Assembly: GCA_010093745.1 (NCBI GenBank) | Contig: MU005959.1 | Coordinates: 1 to 64,000 of the forward strand | Origin: Piedraia hortae CBS 480.64 | Taxonomy: Eukaryota | Length of the DNA: 64,000 nucleotides | Reading direction: 5' to 3' | Shown here: piece by piece, positions 5,299-48,463 of the stretch | Position numbering within the stretch: the stretch's first letter is position 1 | Layout of the letters: the number at the start of each line of letters is the position of its first letter | The notes under the pieces: model-generated | What the model was told of the DNA's origin: nothing | Databases searched by the model: none | The model's input: only the letters and a program-made list of their open reading frames with translations | Made by a program: the position numbers and the translations under genes

Positions 5299-5777
5299 AG
5301 GGTCTATGGAAGTTTGGACAGGCCTCAATCCTTATGGGCGAATGTTTACAGCGCTGTGCGCTTTTTGACTGAGTGGGAATCAAAATTTTGACAATTTTGT
5401 AACTATCCTTTTTATATTCGTTGAGAGAATGCATTTTAACCATGTCTTTGCAATTTTCTTGTCTTTCGTCTGCTGTCTACTTTTCGCTCTTGCCAGTTGC
5501 CTTGGCAACATCCTATTGACGTTATTGAACTTCACATCGATCTAAAAGTCCTAAAGTCCTATCATGATAAGTCAAGCCAATAATCTCTTGTCAATGTATC
5601 ACATTCGTGTTAGATTTCTAGAGTGCGTCACTTATGTTCTGAATAAATACCTCTATAAATTCCCCTAACGACCGTCGATGCACATAATAGCAAAAGATTG
5701 CAAGACAACCCCCAAGAATAACCCATCCCACCCCATCAACCTTCCAATAACCCCCTTCTTCCAACGAAACTAGAAGT

Positions 5778-7430
5778 CTACTCTCCCCTCCTCGACCTCA
5801 AATTCGCCTCAATTGTCTGAATCATCCTATTCCCAATCTGGCTTGCCTCAGGGAACCTCGGCGCGAAATATCGTTGGATACGTTCAAACTTCTCCTTGTA
5901 CGCCTCAAAGTGTCCAAGACTAACACATTCACTCCAATCACGGGCTGCAAAGGTAAATTCCAAATCATCCGCACGGAAAGTATTATCCGTTAACGCAGTT
6001 TCGATCGCCTCGTTGAGGAGGGAGGGGTTGCGGTAGAGGTATCTATTTCTTAGCTGGGTTGGGGTTTTTTTTGGTGGGGAGAGGGAAGTCTTACTCTGTA
6101 ATTCCTAGCCAGAGGCGGAAGAGGGGTGTGGAGCAGATGATGTGGTCGTATGGAACGATGTGTAGTTTCCACCAGCAGTCTACGATGGCGAGGATGCTTA
6201 GGTGGTTGTTTTTGAGACGTTCTTTGGGTTTTTCGCCGACGCTGAAGCGGTCTAAGACTTCGTCTTCGAGGAGAAGTTCCTGGTCTTTGCGGGTTTTGCC
6301 GAATACGGCATCCCGCGCGGTGTAGATTCGATCTGTAAGTTCCTTGCGATGGCCCCCGAGCATGAGTTTGAAGAGTTCGGTGACGGAATCGGCGTATTGG
6401 CGGATTTGTTGTCTGGCATTGGGGTTGAGGATGGCGAGACCGGCGTAGACGTGCCATTTATTGTTGTAAATGCGGAGGGTTATGTTCATTTTTACGTTTT
6501 CGATGCCGCCGACATAGCGGGGTTCTTCCCAGGGGAATTGTTTATTGGCACACCATGCTGTGCCCATGGAGAGGAAGGCGGCGTGTGTGACGGCTTGGGT
6601 GTCGGCTGTGATGCGGTCGTGCTCAGCGGCAGATAGTTGGACGATTTCGGAGTTCATGCAGGACAGGATGTTCTTTACGAGTTCGAGGGATTTATCGGGG
6701 GCTCGATGGGGGATGATGACCAAGGGCTGACCTTTGGGGTCAACGCCGGGCCCATGGAGAGAGTGACAGGATATAATCTCAACATCTCCAGGAAGGTGTT
6801 TCTCAAACGCAGTAATCTCAGGCGCCTTGGTAGACGTTTGTCCTCCAACAATAGCACCAAGCTTGGTAGAAGGCCCGTAGGTTTCTACAATCTTATCAAT
6901 ATTGCGAGCCTCGACAGAGTACATGATCCAATCAGAAGAGCGAGACACGTAATGACCATTGAATAAGATGGAAACATTGGACTGCCTACCTTCAGCGCTA
7001 ATCATTAAAGAGTAAGGATGCCTACGTTGTCGGCAAACTCGGTCTTGAGTGCCTCAAACTTTTCAGGGACATCACACGCATGGACTCTGAGTGAGTTAGC
7101 CTGCAACTTGTTAGCAAATTACACAACAGATAGTAAGATGTTGCAGATATCTCATCAGACAAGTAATTGATTAGGTAGCTGAGATTTAACATCAGTGACA
7201 GCAGCCGGTGAGCAGAAACATCAGGACGATGAGTCCGCGGCCCAGCTGCCATGCTCGAGCCAAATGCACTCAAGTCATCATTTGCAAGGAAATGCATTGT
7301 CCATACCTTACGGGAGCAATGGAAGCAAAACGTCGGCGACTGCCTACCTCCATCCAGCAGCGCTTATCCGACGGGCATACATCTTGCCCATATCACCCAT
7401 TCCGATGATGCCGACGACAGGACTGCCCAT
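5778..7430 (-). CDS. TYR1: Prephenate dehydrogenase
   Basis: Exons 7430-7348, 7086-7026, 6981-6095 and 6042-5778. N-terminal GIIGMGDMG Rossmann motif; GGQTSTKAPE, HSLHGP and HDRITADTQAVTHAAFLSMG motifs. Confidence 0.95.
7150..7286 (-). ncRNA. snR13: Box C/D snoRNA, snR13 homolog (guides 2'-O-methylation of 25S rRNA, A2280/A2281 in yeast numbering)
   Basis: Box C ATGATGA at 7281-7275 and box D CTGA at 7158-7155. TGAGTGCATTTGGCTCGAG follows box C; its GCATTTGGCT (7267-7258) is antisense to LSU AGCCAAAUGC. A second element GCTACCT (7179-7173) is antisense to the adjacent AGGUAGC. Both match my recollection of yeast snR13. End coordinates are approximate. Confidence 0.88.
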
Positions 7431-7585
7431 ATTGAATGTTGTGAGAGGCTGGTGTTGAAAAGGAGTGTGGTTATATGCGAAGCTTCAAAAAGCTCGGGCA
7501 AAATGTCGCGGAAGCACCCGCTCTTGGCGAGTGGGGCCTGGACTTCCCACCACAATTTCGTCCACTGCAAACACGCAACGCAGTC

Positions 7586-8189
<604 letters not shown>

Positions 8190-10584: not shown

Positions 10585-11406
10585 ATGTTGCCAACAAAGA
10601 CCAACTTATCCGCTGATGGTATCCTAGCAAGTGCTGCAACCTCTCCTCCGAGTCCAAGTCCAGCTAGCAGCCAATGGGACAGCATCAACGATTCCTCTCC
10701 ACCCCATGACTCAGTTCTAACCGTGGAGTCCTCCATACCACCTCTCTCTGCTTCCCCTACGAGCTTTATACCCTCACCCACCTCCCAAACCAATCCACCA
10801 AAGCACCAAAATATCAAAAACATGCACATTGAGCTAACTCTCGCCCAAAAAAACGCCCACGACGCAACACTACACTACAACATCCTCCGCCGCGAAGCAT
10901 CCCAACTCCAACTCGCCATCCTCCAACTCCGAAAATAAGCCTACGAAGCAGAGCAGCGATTACAAAGCGCTCGCCAAACTAGCGCATTCTTCGAGAACGA
11001 GCTCCGTGAGATCCGTCTTCGCGAGGATATAAATCTCTGGGGAAAGAGCGGAGCATCTAACCCCAAGATAGAAATAGAAGGTGACCAACCCGATCGCAAA
11101 CCCATTCACGGTCCATTGGCAAAATGGCAATCAGACGTCGAGAGGCGTCTAAGCGACTACGGAAACATGACGCATTTCCCCTGGCCGCCGAGAATTAACA
11201 ATGGAAAACACGATCTAGGGTGTGATAGTACGAACACAGAACGACAATGTCCCTGTTCGATCCGCACAGCATTCCTATCCGCAAACCTGAACCTAAAAAG
11301 AGAAAGGATAAAATGGCTCCCCCAAAAATTCAAACCCGAGTTTCGGTCTGAAGCGAAATACGTATTTGACATTCTAGAGGATCTGGTTTCTTCGATCCCT
11401 ATGTAG
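10585..11406 (+). pseudogene. Hypothetical protein interrupted by one in-frame TAA
   Basis: The 10558-10938 and 11116-11406 ORFs share a frame that is otherwise open across TAA 10936-10938 (QLRK*AYEAEQRLQ). No intron signals flank the stop. Confidence 0.5.
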
Positions 11407-12931
11407 GTATGAGGTCGCCGGTATAAACACAGCTTCCTGATCCTGGGACACTGATTACAATCGCTTCATTTAGCTTTTCCTCGGTTATATACGGGAAGAG
11501 TGGGAGGTAGTATTCCTCCTTCCACCTCCTCTTTACCGCGTCGATTTTATCCTTTGGAACGAGGTGGACGGAGCAACCCCCCCACCCCGCACCCGTTAGT
11601 CGACTCCCATACGCACCTGCCTCTCTCGCAAGTGCACACAATTTATCCAGCTCGGGACACGAGTTCTGGTAGAGATCCCTACACGACGTCTGGGTCTCGT
11701 TCATCAGATCCCCCAGCGCCGCAGGCAGATTCTGCACCCGCTCCGGGTGCGAGAGGAAGTTATAGAATCTTAACACACGCCCTGCCTCCTGGAACACATG
11801 CAACGCACGCTGACGGAGCATAAACCTCTCCGCTCGGATCGGGAATTTGGTCATATACCTCTCTTCAAGCTCCTTCGAAGTTAGACCAAGGATAGACGAG
11901 ATTTCCTCGCGGGAATACCCCGCCTCCTCTTGCGTTAGCAGCTCTCTCACCAACTCCACAAGCTGGTTGAGTTGGGAGGAAAACACATTCTTCTTAACCT
12001 CCTCGTCCTGCGCGAAATAAGCATCGTGGAATCCCCGCAGCGAAACTCCCAGGGGCGAAGCATCCCTCCTCAAACCCTCCTCCAACCCGCTCAGTTTAGC
12101 GAGCACAATCGCCGCGAGGGTTACCTCCACGACGCGGAGGTTATAGCACTCCGGCGCGGAATCGTATTTATCCGCTTGGATATACGTCTGGGCAATGAGG
12201 AAGACGAAGTCGTTCTCAGGAGGGAAGCGGATATTTTCGACTTTGAGGGAGGGGACGAAGGAGACGTACACAGCTTCGTCTTGGATTGGGAAGACGGAGG
12301 CCGCTTGGTCCATTCCCCCCGAATTGACGCCAACTTCGCGTTCCGCGGTCACTGCGGCTTCGACGAGGGATTTTTTGGGGATGTAGGTGATGTTGTTGGC
12401 GTAGAGGACTGCTAACGCGCTCGCGCAGACAAAGGCGGCGCTGGAGGAAAGACCTCCCCCCGAAGGGACGTTTCCGTCAACGAGGATGCTGTGGAGGGGG
12501 AGGGTAGGGTCGCTTTGCGAAGGGAGGAGTTGGGTCGCTCCCCTGAGACCAGCTTTGAAATAGTTTGTCCATTCTAGACTGCTTGAGTCGATGAATTTGA
12601 GGTCTGAGGCGGGGAGGTTGCGGGGGGGGAATTTTGCAGGTTGGGTGCTGGAGATGAGGACTTTGTGGGGGTTTGGTGGGGGTGTGGAGAGTGTGCTGAC
12701 GGCGATTAAGATGTCGGCTTCGGTGGCCATGGGGAGGACAGAGTAGAGACAGTAGTCAATGTGTTCGCCTATCAGGTTTACCCTTCCCGGACTGCGTGAG
12801 ATGCAGGTTGGGGCGCAGCCGTGGGTTTGGATGAATTGGTTGATTAGGTTTTTCCATCGTGAGGTTTGGAATGGGATGGATGGTGATGGGTAGATTTGGG
12901 AGAGGGAGGTGACTATTGGGACTCCTTCCAT
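11399..12931 (-). CDS. GAL1: Galactokinase
   Basis: SPGRVNLIGEHIDY, VPSGGGLSSSAA, GGMDQ and GSRLTGAGWGG GHMP-kinase motifs. Confidence 0.95.
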   Translation of the reverse strand: MEGVPIVTSLSQIYPSPSIPFQTSRWKNLINQFIQTHGCAPTCISRSPGRVNLIGEHIDYCLYSVLPMATEADILIAVSTLSTPPPNPHKVLISSTQPAKFPPRNLPASDLKFIDSSSLEWTNYFKAGLRGATQLLPSQSDPTLPLHSILVDGNVPSGGGLSSSAAFVCASALAVLYANNITYIPKKSLVEAAVTAEREVGVNSGGMDQAASVFPIQDEAVYVSFVPSLKVENIRFPPENDFVFLIAQTYIQADKYDSAPECYNLRVVEVTLAAIVLAKLSGLEEGLRRDASPLGVSLRGFHDAYFAQDEEVKKNVFSSQLNQLVELVRELLTQEEAGYSREEISSILGLTSKELEERYMTKFPIRAERFMLRQRALHVFQEAGRVLRFYNFLSHPERVQNLPAALGDLMNETQTSCRDLYQNSCPELDKLCALAREAGAYGSRLTGAGWGGCSVHLVPKDKIDAVKRRWKEEYYLPLFPYITEEKLNEAIVISVPGSGSCVYTGDLIPT

Positions 12932-13105
12932 CTTGATGATCTTGGCTGGTTGGAGGGGGTGAGAGTGGGGCTTATCCGGGACGAACCGCAAGCAAGGGAT
13001 TGGGTGGAATATTTGACGGGCACTTGTGCGTTGCCAAGGATCAGTGTGCCTGACAGAGGATGTAGGAAGAGAAAGTACGTTGCTCGTGAGTCGTCTATCA
13101 ACCTC

Positions 13106-24766: not shown

Positions 24767-24825
24767 AGAGGGGAGATGGGGAGTGTGGTTGATGGGTTGT
24801 CGGCAGATTATGTTGTGGTGGGAAG

Positions 24826-33162: not shown

Positions 33163-33197
33163 TATACCTACCACCTCAACCCCCTAGCCTAATCAAT

Positions 33198-35500: not shown

Positions 35501-35611
35501 GAGTTACTGTTAGAATAGAACATGTTATGTAGGGGCTGTGTATGCATATACCAACAAGGCTGAAGCAGTCCATTCATCATATCTACCCTTTCTCCCCATA
35601 CCATCTCAACA

Positions 35612-36637: not shown

Positions 36638-37278
36638 CGACGACGTTCTGCTTCTAACTCTCGCTCCGCGTTACGGTAATATTTCGCCGTGTCGACGCCG
36701 TGGTGGTCGTGATTGACGAAATTGAACCACGGCATGATGTGGACGAAGACGCCGGAGTAGCGGCTTTGGCGGGCTGCTGCGCTTTGGAGGTATGATGATA
36801 GTGTGCTTTTTCCGTAGAGTGGTTCACCGCGTTTGACTTTATCCGTCATCTCGCGCATGTCCATTTCGACTTCACGTCGGTTTTCGGAGAAACCGTAGAA
36901 GCGGTTTACGGATCTTGTGTACACGAAGAAGAAGGCTGCCATTAATCCCACCCCCCCGCTGACACGCATGCACGACCGCCATTCCACCCGCGGGATGTTT
37001 GTGGGGGAGAAGCGTTCCATGGCGAGGATTCCCGCAGGAATCATGCTGCCCCAGAACGCCCCGACGGCGTAGTCGGATGGCCTCGCATAGCCGATTACGC
37101 GCTTGAAGTGGGGGTCGCAATCGATCAGCTGGGCGGTGTTAGTGGAGAGCTACTAATAGGAGGCTTTACGCACGGGATACTCGGAATTCAGCGCCGTGGG
37201 AAAGACACCGGCCGAGCGCCTCGTCTCGCCCAGCTCAGGGTACTCGGTCACGCTATGCACTTCTCTCTTGGGCTCCAT
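36634..37278 (-). CDS. NADH:ubiquinone oxidoreductase ~21 kDa fungal subunit (NUXM)
   Basis: EYP|LIDCDPHFKRVIGYARPSDY across intron 37173-37129; RFYGFSENRREVEMD; PWFNFVNHDHHGVDTAKYY. Confidence 0.9.
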
Positions 37279-37404: not shown

Positions 37405-40400
37405 ATGTCGCGGCCGACGGTGGACGATTTGACGGGTAACCATGCCCTCGCCGTCCTGGCGCAAAAAACATGGCTTCATAAACCCTCGAAAAAGGTCGCC
37501 CCAGCAACGATAAGGAAGCTCTGGCAAGAAGTAGAAAATGACCCGCAACCGCCGTTCTGCATCCTCCTCCTGGAACAATTACAAACGCTGGAAAAATACC
37601 TCTGGCCGGGGTTCACGGAGAAGAGCTCGGATGAACATGTTTTGCTGCTGGTACTGCTGGTCAACGCGAAACGAACCGACAACCTTCCCACCTGGTCGCT
37701 TTTCGCAGAAAGGCCGGCAGAGTTCGCGCTCTTCTTCCACAGAGTCGCAAGGCTTAGCATCGATCAGGCTGTACCTCTTCCTATGCGAACGCAGGTAGTC
37801 GTCTTCCTAATTGACGCGTTCCAAAGCCTGGATCATCATATCGTTAAAAAGGAATGCGCCCCGTTAATGTCGATTGGAATCTGGGAACACATTCACTCGG
37901 ATGAGCTGCGAGAGAAGATGGTGGCAAAGAGTCCCCTGCTGCAAAAGGCTTGGCGCGCTGCGAAGAAGAAGAAGAAGGATTCCGTCTTTGAACGCCGTTG
38001 GTTGAAGACTATTGTGGTAGACTTGATCTCCCTCGTCTATGACGTTGATTTACTCTCGCAGAGGCCGAGAGAATGTTTCAATCATGCAGAGAGGCTTTTG
38101 GAGTTGTTGTGTGACTTGCAGAGTAACCTTCCCACGAGGCGGTTCTTCAATTCCTTGATGCAGGACTTGAACCTGCTCCCTGCTGCCAAACTGTCGCCAA
38201 TGTACAGAGATAAAGACGCTGCCCGACTACGGGACATGTTCTCTCTGCTGCAGCACTACACTTACTTTCCTCTGGATGACTTGACAGGGAAACAGCTCAG
38301 CCGCGTTGAGTATGAAGAAGTCTACAACGCGAAAATTGCGCGACTACAGCTGAGCGCGTACAAACTCCAACCGGAGAAGCTCAAACTCCTGGTGACAGCC
38401 AACTATGGTAGCCTGGGAAAAAGGGATGAACTGCTAGGCCATCTTCAAGAACTCAATGATGCCGAGCTGGTGGAGCTATGCTCTGCAGTTGATCTTCGAA
38501 CCGAATACGAAGAGTTTCATATTGTGAATCGAGCGTTTCTAGAGGAAGTCTTGGCATCATTTGTCGAGTCGAGACCCTATTGCTCTGATGTCCTGAGTAA
38601 AATGAATGTCTTCCCAACAGAGAGCGAACTCAACAGTGATCTAATGCAATGGGTTGAAGACTACGACGGCACACAGGCGCTTCCTTTGCCCAAACTCAAC
38701 CTGCAGTTCCTCTCGTTGGGTGATTTTCTCTGGCGATCGTTTATGCTCTATAGAGGAGAGACATTCTACAGTATAGCCCGACATTTGCGAGATACGGTGG
38801 AGAAGATTAAGCCTCGCTTGAGGGATGGTCTGACCGTGTTCTCTGGCTCCTCCCCTATGGCTCTTCCTATTAGTTCGCCGGCCGTTGTTGATGTCCTGCC
38901 GCCGAGGATTGGGGAATTTGTCCCGGCCGAGGTGAAGTTGGAGATCGCTCTAGACACGGCCCATGCACAGCGCAGGGAATGGGAGAGCTTATGGCCTGAA
39001 AATGTGGTTTACTTGCTTGCTGTCAATGCTGGGGATGTGAGCAATGGCAATGCTTCCCAGCTGCCTATTAAAGCTTTGCGGTGTGCAGAGGTGATAAATG
39101 TCGTGGGTGACGATCGGAAACCCTGGAAGCCGGAGCAGGAGAACCAGGGAAAACCGCGTCTTTTGCTCCGCATGGATGCCATCTCCTACCAGGCAGATAA
39201 GGATGCAGGCAGAGATGTTGTTGACCAAATCAACGTTCTAATACGCAGACGAGCAAGAGAGAACAATTTCAAGGCGGTTCTTGATTCACTAAAACAGCTA
39301 GCCGTGTCTGAAGATGTTCCCCTGCCGTTGTGGTTTATGAATGTCTTCTTAGGATTGGGCGACCCAGCAGCTGCTTCTTACCCCAAGCTACCTAATCGAC
39401 TTGAGTCGATAGATTTTAGAGACACCTTCCTCAACTGGCAACATCTGGTGGAGACGCACCCTGGGAAAATCCTGGAGCCTGACCCAGACCAAGACTCGAG
39501 CTTCCCGCCACCGTATGTTCTCGAAACGAACCAAGCTACCTTACCTAGTAAGAAGCGGAAAAGGGAACAAGCTGAAGCGGTAGATGTTATCCAAGTATCT
39601 ACGTATGACCCACCGAACACAGGTCCCTTTCCCACGGATGCACCCAAGACGAATCAGATCCGCTTCACCCAGGCTCAGGTCGAGGCAATTACGTCCGGCA
39701 CTCAGCCTGGACTCACAGTCATTGTAGGACCGCCAGGAACAGGTAAAACAGACGTCACCACTCAGATCATCTCCAACATCTACCACAACTTTCCCACCCA
39801 GCGAACTGTTGTAATAGCCCACAGCAATCAAGCCTTGAACCAACTTTTCCAGAAGATCACCAAGCTGGACATTGACCCTCGCCATCTCCTGCGTCTGGGC
39901 CATGGTGAGGAGGAATTACAAACCGAAGCATCGTTCAGCAAAACGGGGCGAGTTGAATCATATCTCGAGCACGGTGCGAAATGCTTGGCAGAAGTCCAAC
40001 GTCTAGCAACTAGTATCAACGCCCCAGGGGCCCACGGAAGCAGCTGCGAAACAGCCGAATACTTCAACACCACCTGGATCCAGCCACGGTGGAAGCAATA
40101 CTGGAGCGGCATCGAATCCGGCGCTGACCCCGTCGCCACCTTTCCCTTTGCCACCTACTTCCTCACCGCACCGCAACCCCTCTTCCCCCCCAACAACCCC
40201 CACTCATCGCAAATCTCCATCGCCCGCGGCTGCGAGTCCTACCTAACCAAACTCTTCTCGGACATAAATCAAATCCACCCCTTTGAACTCCTCCGCAACG
40301 CACGGGACCGATCCAACTACCTCTTATTATCCAAAGCCCGCATCATCGCCATGACCTCAACCCACGCCTCCATCCACAGGCACCAAATCACCTCCCTCGG

Positions 40401-41340
40401 CTTCAGCTACACCAACCTTCTAATTGAAGAATCCGCACAAATCACCGAACCCGAAACCGTCATCCCTCTTGTCATGCAACCCCGTTCCAACCTCTCCCGC
40501 ATAATCCTAATCGGGGACCACCTCCAAAATCGGCCCATAACCTCGCATTCTGCATTCTCATCCCTCGCGCAATCAACCTTTGAACGTCTTGTACGATTAC
40601 ACGTCCCAAGCGTAACCCTCAACTCCCAAGGCCGCGCCCGTCCAACAATCGCAGAGCTCTACAAATGGCGCTACCCTACCCTCACCAACCTCCCCCTAAC
40701 CACCAAAGAACCATTCACCCTCGCCAACCCCGGGCTAAGGTGGGAATATCAGTTCATATCCCTCCCCTCATCTACTGAAACGTGCCCGACGAAGGGGTAT
40801 TACCAGAACCTCGCAGAAGCAGAGTTCGTGGTGGCGATGTATCAGTACCTCCGCCTGTTGGACTACCCTAAGGAGAGGATCACGATCCTCACCCCATATG
40901 CGGGGCAAAAGGCACTGATCAGGGATGTGGTACGTCATCGGTGTGGGGGAGTTTACTTTGGAGAGCCAAAGTGGGTCGGTACGGTTGATAAGTACCAGGG
41001 CGAGGAGAATGATTTTGTGATTCTTTCGATGGTTAGGACAAAGGGACTAGGGTACCTTAGGGAGAGGAGGAGGATTACGGTCGCGCTTTCGAGGGCGAGG
41101 CTGGGGTTGTATGTGGTTGGGAAGGGGGAAGTTTTTGAACGTGTGGAGGGGTTTGGGGGGTTGATGACTAGGCAAGGGGGGTTGGGGCTCGTCGTGGGGG
41201 AGATGTGGGGTGTTACGAGGAGAGGGGTGGGGGAGGAGGTACCCCCTGAGAGAGTGAGGGTTGTGGATTCCCCGGAGGTGCTGGGGGAGTTGGTTTTTGA
41301 GATGGCGAGGGAGAGGGGGGTGAATGATGGGGATGGATAG
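37405..41340 (+). CDS. CWF11: Intron-binding spliceosomal helicase Aquarius/Cwf11
   Basis: LEKYLWP, DLQSNLPTRRF, LPKLNLQFL, ENNFKAVL, VIVGPPGTGKTDV, TVDKYQG, VALSRARLGLY. Alternative ATG at 37384. Confidence 0.93.
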   Translation: MSRPTVDDLTGNHALAVLAQKTWLHKPSKKVAPATIRKLWQEVENDPQPPFCILLLEQLQTLEKYLWPGFTEKSSDEHVLLLVLLVNAKRTDNLPTWSLFAERPAEFALFFHRVARLSIDQAVPLPMRTQVVVFLIDAFQSLDHHIVKKECAPLMSIGIWEHIHSDELREKMVAKSPLLQKAWRAAKKKKKDSVFERRWLKTIVVDLISLVYDVDLLSQRPRECFNHAERLLELLCDLQSNLPTRRFFNSLMQDLNLLPAAKLSPMYRDKDAARLRDMFSLLQHYTYFPLDDLTGKQLSRVEYEEVYNAKIARLQLSAYKLQPEKLKLLVTANYGSLGKRDELLGHLQELNDAELVELCSAVDLRTEYEEFHIVNRAFLEEVLASFVESRPYCSDVLSKMNVFPTESELNSDLMQWVEDYDGTQALPLPKLNLQFLSLGDFLWRSFMLYRGETFYSIARHLRDTVEKIKPRLRDGLTVFSGSSPMALPISSPAVVDVLPPRIGEFVPAEVKLEIALDTAHAQRREWESLWPENVVYLLAVNAGDVSNGNASQLPIKALRCAEVINVVGDDRKPWKPEQENQGKPRLLLRMDAISYQADKDAGRDVVDQINVLIRRRARENNFKAVLDSLKQLAVSEDVPLPLWFMNVFLGLGDPAAASYPKLPNRLESIDFRDTFLNWQHLVETHPGKILEPDPDQDSSFPPPYVLETNQATLPSKKRKREQAEAVDVIQVSTYDPPNTGPFPTDAPKTNQIRFTQAQVEAITSGTQPGLTVIVGPPGTGKTDVTTQIISNIYHNFPTQRTVVIAHSNQALNQLFQKITKLDIDPRHLLRLGHGEEELQTEASFSKTGRVESYLEHGAKCLAEVQRLATSINAPGAHGSSCETAEYFNTTWIQPRWKQYWSGIESGADPVATFPFATYFLTAPQPLFPPNNPHSSQISIARGCESYLTKLFSDINQIHPFELLRNARDRSNYLLLSKARIIAMTSTHASIHRHQITSLGFSYTNLLIEESAQITEPETVIPLVMQPRSNLSRIILIGDHLQNRPITSHSAFSSLAQSTFERLVRLHVPSVTLNSQGRARPTIAELYKWRYPTLTNLPLTTKEPFTLANPGLRWEYQFISLPSSTETCPTKGYYQNLAEAEFVVAMYQYLRLLDYPKERITILTPYAGQKALIRDVVRHRCGGVYFGEPKWVGTVDKYQGEENDFVILSMVRTKGLGYLRERRRITVALSRARLGLYVVGKGEVFERVEGFGGLMTRQGGLGLVVGEMWGVTRRGVGEEVPPERVRVVDSPEVLGELVFEMARERGVNDGDG

Positions 41341-41882
41341 GTGAGAGGTTGTACGAGATATTTTTCGTTCAGAGTGGGTTTACTCTTCTGTGTAATTGGA
41401 TACATCGGTAAGAGATGTGCGAGGATAATGGGGGTTTAGTATGCTGGCATGCAAGCGGAACCGTTACCTGGAATTGAGGCCTCACGTTCAGTCAAGAGTG
41501 ATTCCAGCCCAGTTGGCGCTATAGATATGATTCGATTTGTATGTCAAAGTGGACGGTATAACAAAGGATAGTACAGCTCCTATATAGGTTGATGCGGAAA
41601 GCACTTGAGTGTTAAAATCGCTTGGTAGGGCTAACTAGCTGAAACATCCCCAAAGTGGAACACTGCATGCTCAAAAGGTTCAAAAAGCTGACAAACTGGT
41701 ATCAACAATTACTTGCGCATGTATCGTATCTCTAGATAGTTACAATTTTTTGCCGATCTTGGCTTCCCCGATCATGTAATAGCCCCAGTCTTCAGCCATC
41801 TGTTCTGATTTTGACGTTTTGTGGTGTCCGTGCGGGGAAACGCTTGGCTCGCCCCACCTGCAACCTCACCTCTTACGACAAC

Positions 41883-42540: not shown

Positions 42541-45500
42541 ATGGCCAACAGATCTACGCAAACCAAGGCTTCGGCCGCGGTCGTGCATGAGCGCTCGCTA
42601 CGGTTTAGGGACCACTCTCCCATGGTGTTGAAACTAAAGCAACTAGGCCTAGGCACGCCGAAACCCGGCAAAATGGAGCAACTAGCCACATTCTACAAAC
42701 GGAACATGGATGGATTCAGAAAGAAATACGGTCCGAACCACCCGCTGACGATGAAAACGACCGAAACGCTCAGTCACATCTACACCTTTCTGGGCAGGCT
42801 GGATGATGCGGCAGCACTCCTACCCTCTCCCAACATTAAACACACCGCCCCCTTCCATTATAGTGACCTAGATAAAGCCCATCACGCGGGCACGGTGCAC
42901 CTAATCCTCGGTAACGCCTCACCCGCCACTGAGCATCTCCAACTCGCCTGGTCCAAAAAAGACCGTATCCTCCCCCCTACAGCCCTGAAAACCCATGAAC
43001 TAGCCTACACTCTAGGCAGTCTCTACCGCCAAACCTCCCACCCAAACCTTTCCGCCCCTCTCCTCCACCAATCAATCGCAGGCTTCACCACCCACGGCGA
43101 CTCAGCAGTCGACCTCCGCTTGGGGGCTACACTCGAACTCGCCCTCCTCTCCCTAACCCAAAACCAACCCCTCCAATGCGAGAGCCTCCTCCTCTCAGCC
43201 GCGACGTTCTCAACCCAAACCCTCGGACCAAATAACCTCATCGCAATCTCCGCAGCCGAACACCTCGGCACGCTCTACTCAACCCTCAACCGTTCCGCGG
43301 ACGCGGAAGTGTGGTTGTTAAGGTGTATTGAGATGATGAATGACAAGTTGGGGAAGTTCCACCCCGCGCTGGAAACGCCGCTTACGATGCTGGCTGAGGT
43401 GTTTATCAAGGAGGCGAGGTTGGAGGCTGCGATGGAGGCTGCGAAGAAGGCGCATCTCCTGAGTTGTGCGGATGGGGGGCCGTCGGTTAGGGCTCTCGCG
43501 TTGTTGGGGAGGACGAGTGCGAAGCTGGGGAGGTATGAAGAGGCGGTTGAGATGCTGGAGGTTGTGAGACGGAATGCGAGAAGGGATGAGAGGGAGGTTG
43601 TGGTTGCGTGTGTTGAGCTCGGGGTTGTGTATATCAAGCTTGGTAGGGTGGAGGAGGGGAGGGAGTTGTTGAGGGAGGAGCAGATGAGGTTGAAGAGGTT
43701 GGGGTTGGGTAAGTCGAACCTCGTGGGAGAGGTGGAAAGGTATTTGCGTTTGTGGTGTGTTAGGGAGAGGAAGTTGGGTGAGGGTTTGAGGTTTTTTAAT
43801 GCGGTTGTTGGGTGGGCGTGGAAGGATAAAGAGGTGATGGAGGCGGTGAGGTGTAGGGCCGCCAGGGCGGAAAGGGATGAGATTAGAGCTGATACCGGGC
43901 CTGGGTCGGAGGAAGCGGCGGTAAAGCTGGACGGGCTGGATGGGCGTGGACGTGCGGTGGACGAGGCAAAGTCTCTGCCTAATGGCTTGACTACACATCC
44001 GACTGGATTAGGCTCCAAAGAAGCGGCGGATCTGCCTGATGAGGCCGGGCAGCAGGAGACCAAAAGTGAGCAGATATGCTCGAACGAAGCGGAAAATGTC
44101 ACTATTAGTAATGCTATAGAGCAGCCACCGCAACATCAGCCTCTTGAAAAAGACAAAATGTCCGAATCGCAGAAAAAACGTCAGAAACCAAAGGAGAAGA
44201 AGCAAAGGATGCGTGAAAAAAGTGGCAATTATTCATCCACTAATGAAGCTACGACCTCGAAGCCGCCTGCTCGGCCTGAACATGTCATGGGCGATGCAAG
44301 TTCTCTGAATAATGGCTCGACCACGCATATGTCTGAAACAGGCCCTGAAGGAACGAAAATTGAGCAACAGTGCTTGGACGAAGCAAACGCTACCCGCGAA
44401 ACAGGAGCTCGCTCTCAGCTGCCTCCTCATGAAACAGACGCACAATCCGATCAGAATAGTCAGGACGCACCATTTCAGCAGCCCCCTCAGAAAGGAAAGC
44501 TCACAGAGACGCAGAAGCAACGGCATAAGGAGAAGCTCAAGAAGTCCAAGAAGCAGAGGTTGCGCGAACAAAGTACCAATCATTCAAATCAGGTACGGGC
44601 CGCTGATGACACTACGGTCTGGGAGCCGCCTGTCCAGCCTAATCATGTTGCAGAAGCTACAGCTCCAGATGATCCTGAACATGCTACAAGGCTTTTATTC
44701 CATGAGCAACAGCCGCTGACATCGGAAAATCTAGACCCAGGTGAAGTGGTCCACCTCTCCGAAGTTCAGGACACTCAAATCATGAATACACCCGCACAGA
44801 ACAAACCTGCCACCGAAACCAAGATCAAAGAGCCGACAATCCTTCTTTCGCCTAATGCAAGTATACCATCAGACCAGCCCATCCAGCCACTCGAACTCAC
44901 AAAATCACAAAAGCAGAGAGCAAAGCGCAAAAGACAGAAACTTCGAAGTCAGCGCGATGCGTTTCTCGATGAGTTTGAACGTCTTGCGGCTTCTTCCAAG
45001 GATTCGTTGAGTTTGGAGGATACAAGCTCAAGTGAATGGAAAGATCGATCTGATGATGGAGAGACTGGAACCGGGCGAGAGTATGCAGATGAGAATACAG
45101 ATTGTGAGATGGGGACTAGTCCTGAGCTGTATCCGCAGGAGCAAGGCGGAACGTCTGATCAGAGTCAGCAGCGTACTGAAGGAGAGAAATTGACCAAATC
45201 GCAGATGAAGAGGCAGAGGCAGAAACTTAGGAGGCAGCAGCAAGAAATGGAGGGTCATGAGGGTCAGGAAGCGTCCACTGATGACGCTGATGAAGCTACC
45301 TCGGAGCAGGCTGACCACGTCACGGAGGGTGCAGTTCCGGATGAGCAAAAGTCTCTGACCAACGACTCTACCACTCAGCAGCCACAGCCATCGACATCGG
45401 AAGACATATTCTCAGACGAAGTAACCCATCTCCCTGACGATGACACCAGAACAGAGGAAACTCAGGTAGAGAACAATCCTGCCACCAAAACTGAATCAAC

Positions 45501-46359
45501 ACTCCTCCCTCCCGAGCCAAGCCCACAACCAAATAGAAAGGTCAACTTCACGAAGACGCAGAGGGAAAAACAAAAGAAGAAGAGGCAGAGAATGCGTCAC
45601 CAAAGTGGAAATCATTCGCAGGAAGAGGTGGCTAAGCTTCCCGTTGAAGAGGTTCGGGAATTATTAGGGGACAATAGTGTCGAGTCTGGGATTGAGGAGC
45701 CCGTTCAAGAGAAGGAAACTCTTGCGAGGGCACCGATTTCGAATTGTTTTGGGTTTATGGGAGTGGATATTTCAATTTATGAGGGAGGTAGTTGTGCGGG
45801 AATAGGGGAAGGGGGGGCAGATGGACTGGCGGAAGGTGAAAATATTGCACCGGCGGAGCCGGAAGGCAATACACTAGCGAAGACGAAGGCAGAAGCGTCA
45901 ACAGACATACCAGTCAATGGTCCAGCCAACGGACCAGTCTCGCCGCCGGTTAATGAATCGGGGAAAATGGAAGATTCGGGTCGTGCGTCAACTTATTTCT
46001 CAGCGAATACGGCAGCCAACACAGCAGCCAATGCTCCAGCCAACGCTTCATTCAACGCAGCAGTCAACGCAGCAGCCATCGTCTCAGCGCCAGCGCCAGC
46101 GAACCCACGCGCAACAGCACCATCCGCACCAGTGCTGTTATACACCAGCAGCATTCTAACCCTCCCCCTAGGACCCTCCACCCAAGCAACCATCCGCGAG
46201 AGCACGATACGTATCGGCGACTTACAAGCTCTTTACCGCCAAGCCAAACACGACTGGAAACTAAGAGACGCGCTGAAGGGGCTGATGGCGGGGTGTGGTA
46301 CTGTTGAGGAGGTGAGGGTTGTTCAACAGGCTTGGAGGGAGATGGGTGGGAGGGATTAG
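42541..46359 (+). CDS. TPR-repeat protein with long disordered repetitive C-terminus
   Basis: ~1270-aa ORF with TPR_10/12-like units (GPNHPLTMKT..L, LGPNNLIAISAAEHLG, LGKFHPAL) and five basic motif copies. Confidence 0.75.
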   Translation: MANRSTQTKASAAVVHERSLRFRDHSPMVLKLKQLGLGTPKPGKMEQLATFYKRNMDGFRKKYGPNHPLTMKTTETLSHIYTFLGRLDDAAALLPSPNIKHTAPFHYSDLDKAHHAGTVHLILGNASPATEHLQLAWSKKDRILPPTALKTHELAYTLGSLYRQTSHPNLSAPLLHQSIAGFTTHGDSAVDLRLGATLELALLSLTQNQPLQCESLLLSAATFSTQTLGPNNLIAISAAEHLGTLYSTLNRSADAEVWLLRCIEMMNDKLGKFHPALETPLTMLAEVFIKEARLEAAMEAAKKAHLLSCADGGPSVRALALLGRTSAKLGRYEEAVEMLEVVRRNARRDEREVVVACVELGVVYIKLGRVEEGRELLREEQMRLKRLGLGKSNLVGEVERYLRLWCVRERKLGEGLRFFNAVVGWAWKDKEVMEAVRCRAARAERDEIRADTGPGSEEAAVKLDGLDGRGRAVDEAKSLPNGLTTHPTGLGSKEAADLPDEAGQQETKSEQICSNEAENVTISNAIEQPPQHQPLEKDKMSESQKKRQKPKEKKQRMREKSGNYSSTNEATTSKPPARPEHVMGDASSLNNGSTTHMSETGPEGTKIEQQCLDEANATRETGARSQLPPHETDAQSDQNSQDAPFQQPPQKGKLTETQKQRHKEKLKKSKKQRLREQSTNHSNQVRAADDTTVWEPPVQPNHVAEATAPDDPEHATRLLFHEQQPLTSENLDPGEVVHLSEVQDTQIMNTPAQNKPATETKIKEPTILLSPNASIPSDQPIQPLELTKSQKQRAKRKRQKLRSQRDAFLDEFERLAASSKDSLSLEDTSSSEWKDRSDDGETGTGREYADENTDCEMGTSPELYPQEQGGTSDQSQQRTEGEKLTKSQMKRQRQKLRRQQQEMEGHEGQEASTDDADEATSEQADHVTEGAVPDEQKSLTNDSTTQQPQPSTSEDIFSDEVTHLPDDDTRTEETQVENNPATKTESTLLPPEPSPQPNRKVNFTKTQREKQKKKRQRMRHQSGNHSQEEVAKLPVEEVRELLGDNSVESGIEEPVQEKETLARAPISNCFGFMGVDISIYEGGSCAGIGEGGADGLAEGENIAPAEPEGNTLAKTKAEASTDIPVNGPANGPVSPPVNESGKMEDSGRASTYFSANTAANTAANAPANASFNAAVNAAAIVSAPAPANPRATAPSAPVLLYTSSILTLPLGPSTQATIRESTIRIGDLQALYRQAKHDWKLRDALKGLMAGCGTVEEVRVVQQAWREMGGRD

Positions 46360-47389
46360 GGGATAGGGTAGGGTAGTTTTCGATGGTCTCGGTTTTCTAT
46401 AATTCTCTTCGGATGTCGTCTGGTCCATTCTGTCAAAGGACGAATTGCGTATGTTTTATGCCTCTGATATCTGTTCACGATCTGAATACCAGTTTTTTTC
46501 TGGCACTTGTGCTGAGCTAGGAGAGCAGGGCCGTTCCAACATGAGTTACGGATGTTGGGAAGATAGTTTAAGCGCTGGCTAAGCTGTATATCGAGTAGTT
46601 GAGAATATGCCATTTGCACATTCACGCAGGTAGGAGAAATATGTTCGAGGATGCCATTGTCCTTTTCCAACCAAACACCACTGACTACACCATTCTCGTA
46701 ATCGACAAAGCCCATTTCATCTTTGATGGATGCCCAACCACGGAGTGGTCACTAGAGCATAACCCGAAAACTATCACCCCAAGTGTTGTGTGCCTGTATA
46801 ACTACCGAGGTCCCAGCACCGCTCAGGGGCTGCTTTGGCTGTCCAACCGCTTCACGCAGACCAGGATCAGTGCCACCCCAACCTGATAGCCACACGGAAT
46901 CTCGCTGGCCAAAGCTCCGGCTGTCACCACTGAATGTCAGCCTCCATTCCTCTTTCCTGATAGATTTTTAGGGCCGTATATAACGTCATCCTCAACACAG
47001 AAATGATTTACTGCGGGAATTATACCCTTCAGACGATTTCTACGGGTTGGTGGGTCCTGTGTGTGTCTGCGTGCCAAGAACTGTGGGGAATGCTGGTTGA
47101 TGTTCGATACGTGTAATGCCAGGCTGATTTTGACGATAAAAGTATGTAGACATTATCACGAATATAGGTACCAATACGAGCGGAGCATGACTAAGCGTAT
47201 TTTCCTGGGCTTTTGCCCATAGCAAGGTGTAAAGACTGAGTTCGTGTAATTCAAATGATCGAGGGAGTGAGTTTAAGGGAAATGCTTTATGTCATTGATG
47301 TTGGTCGAGTTCAAAGCATTTGGTCGACAGGTGACCTGCGGGGTGGGGCACGTTGAAGCAACTCTTTTCAGAAGCTGCAAAATCCAACA

Positions 47390-48463
47390 ATGTCGCATCA
47401 AGAAAACCATACCTCCGCCATCACCGACGCGCCCCTAACAACAATCGAACTCAGCTACCCCAAGCTCGCAAGCGGCAAAGTGCGCGAAATCTTCGACATC
47501 GGCTCTGAAAAACTCCTCTTCGTCGCTACAGATCGCATATCAGCCTACGACGCGATCCTCAAAAACGGCATCCCAAGCAAAGGCATAATCTTAACCCAAC
47601 TCTCAGCCCACTGGTTCAAGCTCTTAACTGTAAAATTTCCCAAGATCAAACACCACATGCTCACAACAGAGTTACCGAGTTCAATTTCTCAGGAAGAGAA
47701 GTCTTGTCTGACTGGACGGTGTATGCAGGTCCGTCGCTTGCCTGTTGTGCCTATAGAGTCGATTGTGCGAGGTTACCTCACTGGCTCTGCGTGGGTAGAG
47801 TACCAGGCGAAGGGAACCGTGCATGGGATTCAAATGCCTGCTGGGTTGAAAGAGAGTGAGAAGTTGGAAAGTCCAATTTGGACGCCAAGCACAAAAGCCG
47901 AGGCTGGCGCTAATGATGAGAATATCTCCCCCGACATGGCAAGAGACCTTGTGGGAGTAGAGTTGGGTAGGAGGATTGAGGAGGCTTCGTTGAAGGTTTA
48001 CGAGTTTGTATGTTTTGTTTTGATTTGTTAATCCTTTCTCGTACTAATTTATGGTGATGATGCAGGCACGTGATTATGCTGAAGAGCGTGGGATTTTGCT
48101 CGCTGATACCAAGTTTGAGTTTGCGCATGATCCTGATACTGGGGATTTGGTGCTCGTTGATGAGGTCTTGACGCCTGATTCTTCGAGGTTTTGGGCAAAG
48201 GAGAAGTATTGTGTTGGACAGGGTCAGGAGAGCTTTGATAAGGTATGCTGATGTTTGGACGTTTGAGACATTGCTGACGCTGGGTTACATAGCAATTTTT
48301 AAGAGACTGGCTAGTCTCATCGGGCCAAAAGGGCATGTCTGGCGTTGAAATGCCGAATGAGATTGTCAAGAAAACGCTGGAAAAGTACTTTGAGGCGTAC
48401 AGGTTGCTGACGGGTAGGCAAGATTTGCGAGTCTGGTTCAATGGGGAGCCGATAAGGGATTGA
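47390..48463 (+). CDS. ADE1: SAICAR synthetase
   Basis: [53 protein letters not shown]. Introns 48008-48065 and 48243-48292. Confidence 0.96.

What the first reader, a model, noticed from the sequence alone, without database searches (positions are those of the whole stretch)
5700..48300. Recurrent sharp C/A-rich to G/T-rich strand-skew switches every few kb
Seen on the + strand: blocks of several hundred nt rich in C/A flip abruptly to G/T-rich blocks. Approximate switch points by eye: 6000, 12150, 20400, 24400, 25085, 29950, 30860, 33620, 35980, 40850, 43295, 46265 and 47700. The pattern is symmetric under reverse complement and occurs inside both + and - strand genes, so simple transcription-strand bias does not explain it. 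Other long genes (RPN1, THOC1, eIF4G) lack it. Established: an upward jump in G-C and T-A skew is the classic signature of bidirectional replication origins. Inference: these are fixed sites of a strand-asymmetric mutational process (origins, break-resection hotspots or R-loop/G4 sites) at unusually high density and amplitude.
Basis: partly seen in the sequence, partly recalled or inferred. Interest (0 to 1): 0.7.

Follow-up and report, generated by a model that had tools for sequence, protein, structure and literature searches.

The report
Gene-anchored strand-skew flips in fungal genes
Many genes in this fungal DNA stretch switch abruptly from C/A-rich to G/T-rich a few hundred bases before their end, an extreme form of a known but unexplained fungal gene pattern, not a sign of replication origins.

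Summary
All 13 listed switch points show C/A-to-G/T jumps of 0.31-0.73, against a shuffle maximum of 0.345. HMM blocks cover 28% of 5700-48300.

The origin/hotspot reading is not supported. The window is from a Dothideomycete-like fungus. The switches lie inside real housekeeping genes.

- The skew is strongest at silent sites. At 4-fold sites C = 0.58 in C/A blocks and G = 0.52 in G/T blocks, against 0.29 and 0.25 elsewhere.
- It also holds in introns and UTRs.
- Read in the sense direction, each affected gene runs C/A then G/T. This polarity is reverse-complement symmetric, so + and - genes look alike.
- In 3 of 3 testable genes the G/T block ends within about 50 nt of the end of a spliced, RNA-like contig.
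- In 10 of 12 cases the switch lies between 80 nt downstream and 633 nt upstream of the stop codon.
- Aquarius genes of other fungi flip at the same place, more weakly.

This is an extreme, block-like variant of the fungal 5'-C/3'-G gene skew (McLean & Tirosh 2011), with the G+T/C+A signature described for GRINS. The mechanism remains inferred.

The parts
5642..6718 (-). Skew unit in a prephenate-dehydrogenase-like gene (ORF 6094-7053, weak Pfam hit). On the + strand: C/A block 5642-5802, neutral spacer, G/T block 6012-6718. The switch at ~6011 lies 80 nt beyond the stop.
10637..12973 (-). Galactokinase gene (11402-13105) and its downstream region. On the + strand: C/A block 10637-10979, long weak middle, G/T block 12484-12973. 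This is the gradual switch near 12150-12483.
20232..20924 (+). 3' end of a C2H2 zinc-finger-like gene, read by eye from the sequence. C/A block 20232-20357, G/T block 20358-20924. The G/T block includes a G/T-rich intron near 20398-20461 and the 3' UTR.
24114..24822 (+). Arc1p-like gene (23630-24763). C/A block 24114-24256, spacer, G/T block 24435-24822. The switch is 332 nt upstream of the stop.
24823..25711 (-). Unknown gene (24829-26406), convergent with Arc1. On the + strand: C/A block 24823-25085 and G/T block 25086-25711. The switch is 259 nt upstream of its stop.
29019..30394 (+). MCM6 3' part. C/A block 29019-29650, spacer, G/T block 29957-30394. The G/T block contains the intron 30150-30205. 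The RNA-like contig ends at 30442.
30558..30809 (.). Isolated C/A block just after the MCM6 transcript end, followed by a weak upward switch at ~30810. No gene assigned.
33029..34328 (-). Enoyl-CoA hydratase gene (CDS 33198-34049). The whole ~1.3-kb unit is covered. On the + strand: C/A block 33029-33658 and G/T block 33659-34328. In the sense direction this reads 5' UTR and 5' half C/A-rich, 3' half and 3' UTR G/T-rich.
35550..36824 (+). Nucleotide-diphospho-sugar transferase gene. C/A block 35550-36004 and G/T block 36005-36824. The spliced RNA-like contig starts at 34421. Its end, inferred from its length, is ~36795.
40151..41447 (+). Aquarius helicase gene (37384-41337), last 1.3 kb. C/A block 40151-40731 (third positions already C/A-rich from ~39930), spacer, G/T block 40922-41447. 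The RNA-like contig ends at 41459.
42631..43960 (+). TPR-domain part of a 1299-codon ORF (42460-46356). C/A block 42631-43291 and G/T block 43292-43960. This is the sharpest switch and the one unit not at a gene 3' end. The sharp downward switch at 43960 lies inside the ORF.
45358..46424 (+). Smaller blocks in the 3' part of the TPR ORF: C/A 45358-45626, G/T 45627-45838, C/A 46013-46277, G/T 46278-46424. The last switch is 82 nt upstream of the stop.
47378..48286 (+). SAICAR synthetase gene (ORF stretch 47357-48028). C/A block 47378-47668, spacer, G/T block 47949-48286.
55153..55609 (.). No ORF of 200 codons or more, and no gene assigned.

Best explanation
These are not origins. They are the internal polarity of transcription units in a fungus, in an extreme and block-like form. 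In about half of the genes here, the last ~0.4-0.8 kb of the transcribed unit (coding sequence, introns and 3' UTR) is G+T-rich and C-poor on the RNA-like strand. This stretch stops near the transcript end. It is preceded by a 0.15-0.9-kb stretch that is C+A-rich and G-poor. The change between the two takes from a few codons to ~300 nt. A 5'-C/A to 3'-G/T polarity is its own reverse complement, so genes on either strand give the same C/A-to-G/T switch on the + strand, and boundaries between genes give the reverse switch. The two block types are mirror images at silent sites. Most likely, one substitution regime favours C>T and A>G (plus some C>G), and so enriches G and depletes C and A on one strand. 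That regime would act on the non-template strand near the 3' end and on the opposite strand just upstream. I infer that this is transcription-coupled mutation or repair asymmetry. The upstream C/A block could reflect either antisense transcription entering from the gene's 3' end or a different RNA polymerase II state. Shown here: the anatomy, the silent-site and intron signal, the anchoring to transcript ends, and the recurrence in other fungi. Inferred: the mutational cause and the antisense or polymerase-state mechanism.
For: 1. The switches lie in real genes: galactokinase, Arc1, MCM6, enoyl-CoA hydratase, a glycosyltransferase, aquarius, a TPR protein and SAICAR synthetase (Pfam).
2. Third-position keto skew reaches -0.74 to +0.78, while positions 1 and 2 mostly stay within +-0.3.
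3. 4-fold sites: neutral A .22 C .29 G .25 T .24; sense-C/A blocks A .22 C .58 G .10 T .09; sense-G/T blocks A .10 C .11 G .52 T .27. The two block classes are mirror images.
4. 2-fold sites, in the order C/A block, neutral, G/T block: C/(C+T) = 0.81, 0.54, 0.23; G/(A+G) = 0.27, 0.60, 0.84.
5. Two of 2 introns inside G/T blocks have keto skew +0.57 and +0.53, against -0.20 to -0.28 for 3 introns outside blocks. The 3' UTRs of AQR, MCM6, ECH and the C2H2 gene are at +0.28 to +0.44, and the ECH 5' UTR is at -0.39.
The G/T blocks end at 41447, 30394 and 36824, so 3 of 3 testable genes agree.
7. In 10 of 12 cases the switch lies between 80 nt downstream and 633 nt upstream of the stop.
8. Direction is one-sided: 11 sharp upward against 3 sharp downward jumps in the window. 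In 80 metagenome aquarius loci, C/A|G/T adjacent pairs occur in 6 loci (4 distinct) and G/T|C/A pairs in 0.
9. The same gene flips at the same place in other fungi. Third-position skew for aa 900-1140 | aa 1190-1311 is -0.59|+0.66 in the window, -0.44|+0.43 in L057/L061, -0.37|+0.31 in L001 and -0.25|+0.33 in L068. The mean profile of 43 non-redundant fungal-like loci is about -0.1 from -1400 to -500 and positive from -400 to +100 relative to the stop. Twelve non-fungal loci are flat.
10. [quoted passage not shown] They report that the bias extends into UTRs, affects 4-fold sites and shifts amino-acid use.
Against: 1. One strong unit (42631-43960) sits ~3 kb upstream of the stop of its ORF, and the galactokinase switch is ~1.1 kb upstream. 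No homologues could show whether the TPR gene once ended there.
2. About half of the genes lack the pattern, with no explanation found: RPN1, THOC1, eIF4G (weak), NUDIX, RIO2, YBL036C-like, PI31, Swi3 and the homeodomain gene.
3. In long genes the C/A block is not at the 5' end but directly before the G/T block. The published '5' end C-bias' does not predict this.
4. McLean & Tirosh report flat AT skews, correlated so that A goes with G. Here T goes with G.
5. Five units have a similar total size of 1.27-1.38 kb, and GC at 4-fold sites is raised in both block types (0.68 and 0.63 against 0.54). Both would also fit a process that spreads from the switch point.
6. Transcript ends come from unstranded assembled contigs of a run whose RNA nature is the tool's guess. 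That guess is supported here by four joints with GT..AG or CT..AC ends and one poly-T loose end.
7. No polarised substitution data exist, because the two runs are identical in sequence.
Confidence: 0.7

Rival explanations
1. Selection on the nucleic acid rather than mutation. A G-rich RNA-like strand over the last ~0.5 kb would promote R-loops or polymerase pausing for termination in a compact genome. Alternatively, the C/A arm and the G/U arm of the mRNA would fold back on each other.
For: G/T blocks end at transcript ends. The pattern recurs at the same gene position in distant fungi. A 400-nt stretch across a switch folds to -138 to -149 kcal/mol. Two of 5 units fold better than arm-wise shuffles, with z = -2.35 and -3.06. 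McLean & Tirosh also offer an adaptive hypothesis.
Against: Three of 5 units fold no better than arm-wise shuffles, with z = -0.17 to -0.94. Complementary stretches between the arms are short (15-25 nt) and not collinear. G runs of 3 or more are not enriched over composition: 431 observed against 460 +- 13.5 expected. Genes whose 3' ends abut the next gene most closely (NUDIX, RIO2, YBL036C-like) lack the blocks, which is the opposite of what an insulation need would predict. The blocks shift amino-acid use about 3-fold in conserved enzymes, a high cost for a structural signal.
Confidence: 0.12
2. Fixed recombination-initiation (double-strand-break) sites at the switch points. Strand-asymmetric repair or biased gene conversion over ~0.5-0.7-kb resection or heteroduplex tracts on each side would give opposite skews on the two sides.
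For: Several units are nearly symmetric and of similar size: 661|669 nt, 630|670 nt, and five totals of 1.27-1.38 kb. GC at 4-fold sites is raised in both arms, as GC-biased gene conversion would give. The switch can be as sharp as a few codons.
Against: The switch points lie inside coding sequence, whereas yeast hotspots lie mainly in nucleosome-free promoter regions (recalled knowledge, not tested). Deamination of the 3' single-stranded tails left by resection predicts G/T on the left and C/A on the right, the opposite of what is seen (my inference from strand geometry). The outer edge of the G/T arm coincides with the transcript end in 3 of 3 cases, which this model does not predict. Other units are clearly asymmetric: 455|820 and 263|626 nt. 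The same gene position flips in fungi only 46-53% identical in protein.
Confidence: 0.1
3. A GRINS-like recoding process. GRINS are patches of intense, correlated GC and TA skew of unknown cause, known from bacterial polyketide synthase genes and spread by gene conversion. Here such a process would act on fungal housekeeping genes.
For: The signature is the same. G goes with T and C with A, both signs occur within 1 kb on one strand, and the skew is strongest at third positions. Gly, Val and Trp rise in G/T blocks; Pro, Thr, His and Gln rise in C/A blocks (against passages of PMC8256042 seen). That paper also notes GRINS in PKS genes of amoebae and choanoflagellates.
Against: The defining repeat criterion is not met in the window. 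No block has a match longer than 49 nt elsewhere in the 64 kb. These genes are single-copy housekeeping genes, not modular paralogues. The anchoring to transcript 3' ends is not a described property of GRINS.
Confidence: 0.06
4. Bidirectional replication origins at each switch point.
For: The sign of the jump (G over C and T over A to the right) matches the classical origin signature (established knowledge, and noted in the GRINS paper's text on bacterial skews).
Against: There are 13 switches in 42.6 kb. The blocks are only 0.13-0.8 kb long and are followed by neutral sequence or by the reverse switch at transcript ends. The switches sit inside coding sequence at a regular distance from stop codons. 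The same gene position flips in other fungi. The amplitude at silent sites (C 0.58 and G 0.52 at 4-fold sites) is, as far as I recall, far above any replication skew reported in eukaryotes.
Confidence: 0.02

Closest known systems
Opposite GC skews at the 5' and 3' ends of fungal genes (McLean & Tirosh 2011, BMC Genomics 12:638, PMC3315797). Related: C-over-G skew near transcription start sites in plants and fungi (Fujimori et al. 2005, PMC555766; search listing and abstract start only).
   Same: The coding strand is C-biased upstream and G-biased in a small 3' region that runs into the UTR. The bias is seen at 4-fold sites and shifts amino-acid use. It is found in most fungi examined, including Pezizomycotina. 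The cause is unknown, with mutational and adaptive hypotheses both offered.
   Different: That work describes genome-wide averages and gradual ramps. Here single genes show block-like regimes with switches as sharp as a few codons, and near-saturated silent sites. Their AT skew is flat and pairs A with G; here TA skew flips together with GC skew. In long genes the C/A block lies directly before the G/T block, not at the 5' end.
[quoted passage not shown]
   Same: Intense, correlated GC and TA skews of both signs within ~1 kb on one strand. The skew is strongest at third codon positions, and the same amino-acid shifts occur. The mechanism is unknown.
   Different: GRINS are defined as duplicated regions of >500 bp at >80% identity, mostly in bacterial modular PKS genes, and are linked to gene conversion. 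No such repeats are found here. These are single-copy eukaryotic housekeeping genes, and the blocks are anchored to transcript ends.
Replication-origin skew jumps: bacterial GC/TA skew, and the skew 'N-domains' of mammalian genomes (recalled).
   Same: An upward jump of GC and TA skew on the reference strand.
   Different: The scale differs (hundreds of nt against tens of kb to Mb), as do the amplitude and the density. Here the blocks are anchored to transcript ends and the switch lies inside coding sequence.
R-loop-associated GC skew at promoters and terminators of human genes (Ginno et al.; Skourti-Stathaki et al.; recalled, not read here).
   Same: A G-rich non-template strand at gene 3' ends, and a flip of skew at a point between oppositely oriented G-rich stretches.
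   Different: No R-loop data are available here. G clusters are not enriched beyond composition. TA skew is also involved, and the flip lies inside coding sequence rather than at a promoter.

Membership tests
Fungal intragenic 5'-C / 3'-G skew (McLean & Tirosh 2011) | Coding strand C-biased upstream and G-biased in a short 3'-terminal region | tested here: met
   Sense-strand third-position GC skew runs from -0.6 to -0.8 and then +0.5 to +0.8 in 11 genes. In 10 of 12 cases the switch lies between 80 nt downstream and 633 nt upstream of the stop.
Fungal intragenic 5'-C / 3'-G skew (McLean & Tirosh 2011) | The bias extends into UTRs, is present at 4-fold sites and shifts amino-acid use | tested here: met
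   UTRs and introns. 4-fold sites and amino acids (Gly 3.4% to 11.9%, Pro 9.2% to 2.9%).
Fungal intragenic 5'-C / 3'-G skew (McLean & Tirosh 2011) | AT skew roughly flat along genes and positively correlated with GC skew (A with G) | tested here: not met
   TA skew flips together with GC skew, so T goes with G. At 2-fold sites C/(C+T) is 0.81 in C/A blocks and 0.23 in G/T blocks, and G/(A+G) is 0.27 and 0.84.
Fungal intragenic 5'-C / 3'-G skew (McLean & Tirosh 2011) | A general property of genes across fungi | tested here: inconclusive
   Only one gene was tested across taxa. The mean profile of aquarius in 43 fungal-like metagenome loci shows the same flip near -450 from the stop, and several loci are strong. 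In the window itself about half of the genes lack the pattern. No whole genome is held.
GRINS | Mean absolute GC and TA skews >0.15, correlated, and strongest at third codon positions | tested here: met
   The definition was read.
GRINS | Duplicated region of >500 bp with >80% identity to another region | tested here: not met
   A blastn search of all 29 blocks against the window gave 4 non-self hits of 37-49 nt. The rest of the genome could not be searched.
Replication-origin skew jump | The skew domain extends from the origin irrespective of gene and transcript boundaries, at origin-like spacing | tested here: not met
   The blocks are 126-820 nt long, end at transcript ends and alternate about once per gene.
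Replication-origin skew jump | Initiation mapped at the site (ORC/MCM binding, nascent strands) | not testable with these tools
   No such data are accessible.
Meiotic break hotspot with resection-linked asymmetry | Polarity expected from damage to the 3' single-stranded tails (G/T on the left, C/A on the right of the break) | tested here: not met
   The observed sharp switches are C/A on the left and G/T on the right. The expected polarity is my inference from strand geometry, not a tool result.
Meiotic break hotspot with resection-linked asymmetry | Breaks or recombination events mapped at the site | not testable with these tools
   No recombination data. The two runs are identical in sequence, so there are no polymorphisms to use.
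R-loop / G-quadruplex-prone GC-skew elements | Clustering of G runs beyond what base composition gives | tested here: not met
   G runs of 3 or more: 431 observed against 460.2 +- 13.5 in within-block shuffles. Runs of 4 or more: 176 against 185.7. Runs of 5 or more: 75 against 75.0.

The most novel reading that the evidence does not exclude
A localized, strand-specific recoding process of the GRINS type, whose cause is unknown in bacteria, operates in a eukaryote on ordinary single-copy genes. There it is tied to transcription-unit ends and builds bipolar units of ~1.3 kb. These units drive silent sites to near-saturation and shift amino-acid use about 3-fold in conserved enzymes. If so, this fungus would link the unexplained fungal gene skew, GRINS and the kilobase skew patches seen by this scan in archaea into one mechanism. 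Candidates are sense/antisense transcription exposing opposite strands, or a polymerase with a keto/amino misincorporation bias. That mechanism could then be studied in an organism for which sequencing runs, one of them apparently RNA, already exist.
Probability: 0.25. Interest if true: 0.8.

Novelty: new variant of a known kind. Interest (0 to 1): 0.55.

Why it matters
The fungal 5'-C/3'-G gene skew has been known since 2011, and GRINS since 2021. Neither has an accepted mechanism. Here the effect is strong and sharp enough to see in single genes. Silent sites flip from 58% C to 52% G, sometimes within a few codons. Introns and UTRs follow. Conserved enzymes such as aquarius carry the imprint in their amino acids.

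That turns a statistical trend into discrete, mappable units with defined edges, one of them at the transcript end. Direct tests become feasible: stranded RNA and nascent-transcript mapping, R-loop mapping, and polarised substitution spectra.

It also matters in practice. Such blocks open spurious ORFs in several frames, because there are few stop codons. They distort codon-usage and phylogenetic models, and they can be misread as origin signatures.

Tried and rejected
1. Whole-genome analysis: no genome is held for this window, so all genome-wide statements are left open.

2. Polarising amino-acid changes in enoyl-CoA hydratase against 119 homologues: the protein is too conserved. Only 13 and 23 differences were found in the two halves, with no clear spectrum.

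3. Fold-back hairpin across the switch: the first script timed out. A lighter version gave z = -0.17, -0.74, -0.94, -2.35 and -3.06 against arm-wise shuffles. The inverted-repeat search gave only 15-25-nt, non-collinear arms. A specific hairpin is rejected, but compositional complementarity remains.

4. G-quadruplex selection: G runs are not enriched over composition.

5. Context signatures (methyl-CpG decay, RIP): dinucleotide odds ratios in the blocks resemble neutral DNA. CpG is 0.97 in blocks against 0.90, and TpA is 0.64 in both.

6. Repeats among blocks (GRINS criterion): none longer than 49 nt.

7. TPR N-terminal domain homologues, sought to see whether that gene once ended at 43960: only two weak TPR hits. 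This is uninformative.

8. Polymorphisms from sequencing runs: the two runs carry identical sequence over the blocks, so no substitution spectrum could be drawn.

9. Expression: no listed holder is on record as RNA. Run X2 behaves like RNA, with spliced joints and a poly-T end, but its contigs are unstranded. Antisense transcription could therefore not be tested, and depths were not used.

10. Literature: four full-text searches found McLean & Tirosh 2011, Fujimori 2005 and the GRINS paper. They found no description of block-like G+T/C+A flips in fungal housekeeping genes. The library lacks most subscription journals, and I did not read the supplements of these papers.

11. Codon-optimality selection and amino-acid composition as causes: rejected. 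The skew is strongest at silent sites, includes a G-ending regime, and continues into introns and UTRs.

Full report
**What is there.** The window has ~52% G+C and one N run at 3845-4269. Pfam names 18 of the 21 ORF stretches used below as ordinary eukaryotic genes. Among them are a ubiquitin-conjugating enzyme, galactokinase, RIO2, RPN1, PI31, Arc1, NUDIX, MCM6, enoyl-CoA hydratase (ECH), a glycosyltransferase, aquarius (AQR), a TPR protein, SAICAR synthetase, Swi3, THOC1, a homeodomain protein and eIF4G. The closest named relatives of ECH and AQR are Dothideomycetes, at 75% and ~60% identity. The best hit of all is an unnamed JGI protein at 63%. The source is therefore a filamentous ascomycete without a close sequenced relative in the collection. 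No whole genome is held.

The best jumps are 0.31-0.73 with 300-nt arms, and 12 of 13 are >=0.47. The one at 12150 is weak and gradual.
- With 400-nt arms there are 11 upward jumps >=0.45 and only 3 downward ones.
- 200 mononucleotide shuffles never exceeded 0.345.
- A three-state HMM assigns 12,298 of 63,575 non-N bases (19%) to 29 C/A or G/T blocks of 126-820 nt. Within 5700-48300 the share is 28%.
- 8,861 of these block bases lie inside the 21 ORF stretches used here.
- The listed contigs of two runs from two studies carry the same sequence without a single difference over the blocks. This is not an artefact of one assembly.

**It is not a protein effect.**
- Third-position skew reaches -0.74 to +0.78, while first and second positions mostly stay within +-0.3. 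Strings of third positions read almost as runs of C and then runs of G.
- At 4-fold sites the neutral parts have A .22, C .29, G .25, T .24. Blocks that are C/A-rich in the sense strand have A .22, C .58, G .10, T .09. Blocks that are G/T-rich have A .10, C .11, G .52, T .27. The two are reverse complements of each other, so one regime acts on opposite strands.
- At 2-fold sites, where only transitions are silent, C/(C+T) runs 0.81, 0.54, 0.23 and G/(A+G) runs 0.27, 0.60, 0.84 across C/A, neutral and G/T classes. The purine share of 4-fold sites also changes (0.32, 0.47, 0.62), so transversions contribute as well.
- Both introns inside G/T blocks are G/T-rich (+0.57 and +0.53; C = 0.07 and 0.11). 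Three introns elsewhere are at -0.20 to -0.28. The 3' UTRs of AQR, MCM6, ECH and the zinc-finger gene are at +0.28 to +0.44, and the ECH 5' UTR is at -0.39.
The process acts on the DNA or on the transcribed unit as such.
- It is strong enough to change proteins. Gly rises from 3.4% to 11.9%, Val from 3.1% to 11.0% and Glu from 4.6% to 12.1% between C/A and G/T blocks. Pro falls from 9.2% to 2.9% and Thr from 9.0% to 2.7%.
- Against 70 AQR orthologues, the window's protein is shifted towards C/A-coded residues in the C/A block and towards G/T-coded residues in the G/T block. Inferred first- and second-position changes show a net loss of G (-19.7) and gain of C (+10.7) in the former. In the latter they show a net gain of G (+13.0) and losses of C (-9.3) and A (-5.5). 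This inference uses nearest codons and small counts.

**The switches track transcription units.** Read in the sense direction, every affected gene runs C/A then G/T. This holds automatically for both orientations, because such a polarity is its own reverse complement. Three things are not automatic.
- In 10 of 12 cases the switch lies between 80 nt downstream and 633 nt upstream of the stop codon. The exceptions are galactokinase (1,084 nt) and the first TPR switch (3,068 nt). The MCM6 stop is approximate, because an intron lies near the 3' end.
- Run X2 gives contigs with GT..AG or CT..AC joints and a poly-T loose end, so it behaves as RNA. The G/T blocks end at 41447, 30394 and 36824. That is 3 of 3 testable genes.
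- Direction is one-sided. There are 11 sharp upward against 3 sharp downward jumps in the window. Of the three, 30409 sits at the mapped MCM6 contig end and 34325 at the inferred 5' edge of the ECH unit. The third (43959) lies inside the TPR ORF.

**Other fungi do the same, more weakly.** An alignment of AQR proteins retrieved 80 metagenome loci. Third-position skew for residues 900-1140 | 1190-1311 is:
- -0.59 | +0.66 in the window
- -0.44 | +0.43 in L057/L061
- -0.37 | +0.31 in L001
- -0.25 | +0.33 in L068
- -0.45 | +0.09 in L016/17/20
- -0.57 | -0.05 in L035
- near zero in most others

The same HMM finds C/A blocks followed by G/T blocks around the AQR stop in several loci. Adjacent C/A|G/T pairs occur in 6 loci (4 distinct), and G/T|C/A pairs in 0 of 80. 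The mean profile of 43 non-redundant fungal-like loci is about -0.1 from -1400 to -500 and positive from -400 to +100 relative to the stop. Twelve more distant, non-fungal loci are flat. In the window the AQR switch is 419 nt upstream of the stop. The position is therefore a property of the gene's architecture in fungi, not of this chromosome's replication or recombination landscape.

**What is known.**
[quoted passage not shown] The bias runs into the UTR, is seen at 4-fold sites and shifts amino-acid use. They proposed either polymerase-phase-specific mutation or an adaptive CTP-economy effect.
- Fujimori et al. (2005, PMC555766; listing and abstract start only) reported C-over-G skew at start sites in plants and fungi.
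- A lead from earlier notes of this scan pointed to GRINS (Nivina et al. 2021, PMC8256042; passages read). GRINS have intense, correlated GC and TA skews of both signs within 1 kb, strongest at third positions, with the same amino-acid shifts and an unknown cause. They are defined as repeats of >500 bp at >80% identity, mainly in bacterial PKS genes.

The window matches the fungal gene polarity in anatomy and matches GRINS in base signature. It differs from the first in three ways. TA skew flips with GC skew, whereas they report flat AT skew that pairs A with G. The blocks are sharp. In long genes the C/A block sits directly before the G/T block rather than at the 5' end. It fails the repeat criterion of GRINS: the longest non-self match of any block in the window is 49 nt.

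**Mechanism.** Shown here: one silent-site regime in mirror orientation, anchored at transcript 3' ends. The rest is inferred.

The composition of the G-rich strand has G up, C and A down and T about unchanged. This fits C>T and A>G pressure on that strand, on a background that favours G:C, with some C>G. Such a spectrum is expected from damage to an exposed single strand; it also fits the keto/enol misincorporation idea of the GRINS authors.

Near the 3' end the G-rich strand is the non-template strand. That strand is exposed during transcription, pausing or R-loop formation. Upstream, the G-rich strand is the template strand. This would follow if antisense transcripts enter from the gene's 3' side and end ~1.3 kb in, or if the polymerase is in a different state there.

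Several observations remain unexplained.
- Five units total 1.27-1.38 kb.
- A neutral spacer of ~180-300 nt lies between the arms in five units.
- GC at 4-fold sites is raised in both arms (0.68 and 0.63 against 0.54).
- About half of the genes lack the pattern.

The size regularity and the raised GC keep a break- or conversion-centred model alive at low probability. Against it stand the polarity expected from resection, the coding location and the coincidence with transcript ends. Selection for G-quadruplexes or for a specific hairpin is not supported. Origins are very unlikely.

**Verdict.** I file it as a new, extreme and block-like variant of a known fungal gene skew with a GRINS-like signature. 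Its main value is that it makes an old open question experimentally approachable.

Noticed in passing
window 31040-32650: This stretch is multi-copy. Contig depth in run X1 rises from ~12 to 24-43. Both runs hold diverged copies with loose ends at 31040 and 32623. Differences are dominated by transitions: in X1, A>G 20, G>A 18, C>T 17 and T>C 17 of 119. It may be a repeat family or a RIP-affected element.
   Followed up: no
window 43960-46356: The C-terminal ~800 codons of the TPR ORF hold five copies of a basic module of the form (L/F)T(K/E)(S/T)Q(K/R)...KQR..R. The TPR-domain half (residues 1-500) found only two weak TPR matches in a 5.8-billion-protein search limited to proteins of 275-875 residues; the repeat region itself was not searched.
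   Followed up: partly
window 55153-57000: A long G/T-rich stretch (keto skew +0.15 to +0.31 over ~2 kb) without any ORF of 200 codons or more. No gene could be assigned. It may be a - strand transcript with a long C/A-rich sense strand, or non-coding DNA.
   Followed up: no
window 4500-5500, next to the N run 3845-4269: A very GC-rich stretch (0.635) with overlapping ORFs of 120-150 codons (one ATG-started ORF of 305) on both strands, beside the assembly gap.
   Followed up: no
window 37384-41337: Aquarius is a single uninterrupted 1318-codon ORF and is ~100 residues shorter than most orthologues (1400-1450 aa). MCM6 (one small 3' intron), eIF4G and galactokinase also have long intron-free ORFs, so this region is intron-poor.
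   Followed up: no
window 26394-26520: The NUDIX gene's transcript end (poly-T loose end at 26455) lies only ~50-60 nt from the start codon of the next gene downstream (26394). RIO2/galactokinase and YBL036C-like/UQ_con are similarly tight tandem pairs. None of these upstream genes has a G/T 3' block.
   Followed up: partly
loci L005, L006, L016, L035 and others (aquarius genes of metagenome fungi): GC content at third positions rises towards the 3' end of aquarius in many fungal loci. Examples: 0.47 to 0.61 to 0.68 in L016, and 0.48 to 0.73 to 0.76 in L006. This holds even where the skew is weak.
   Followed up: no
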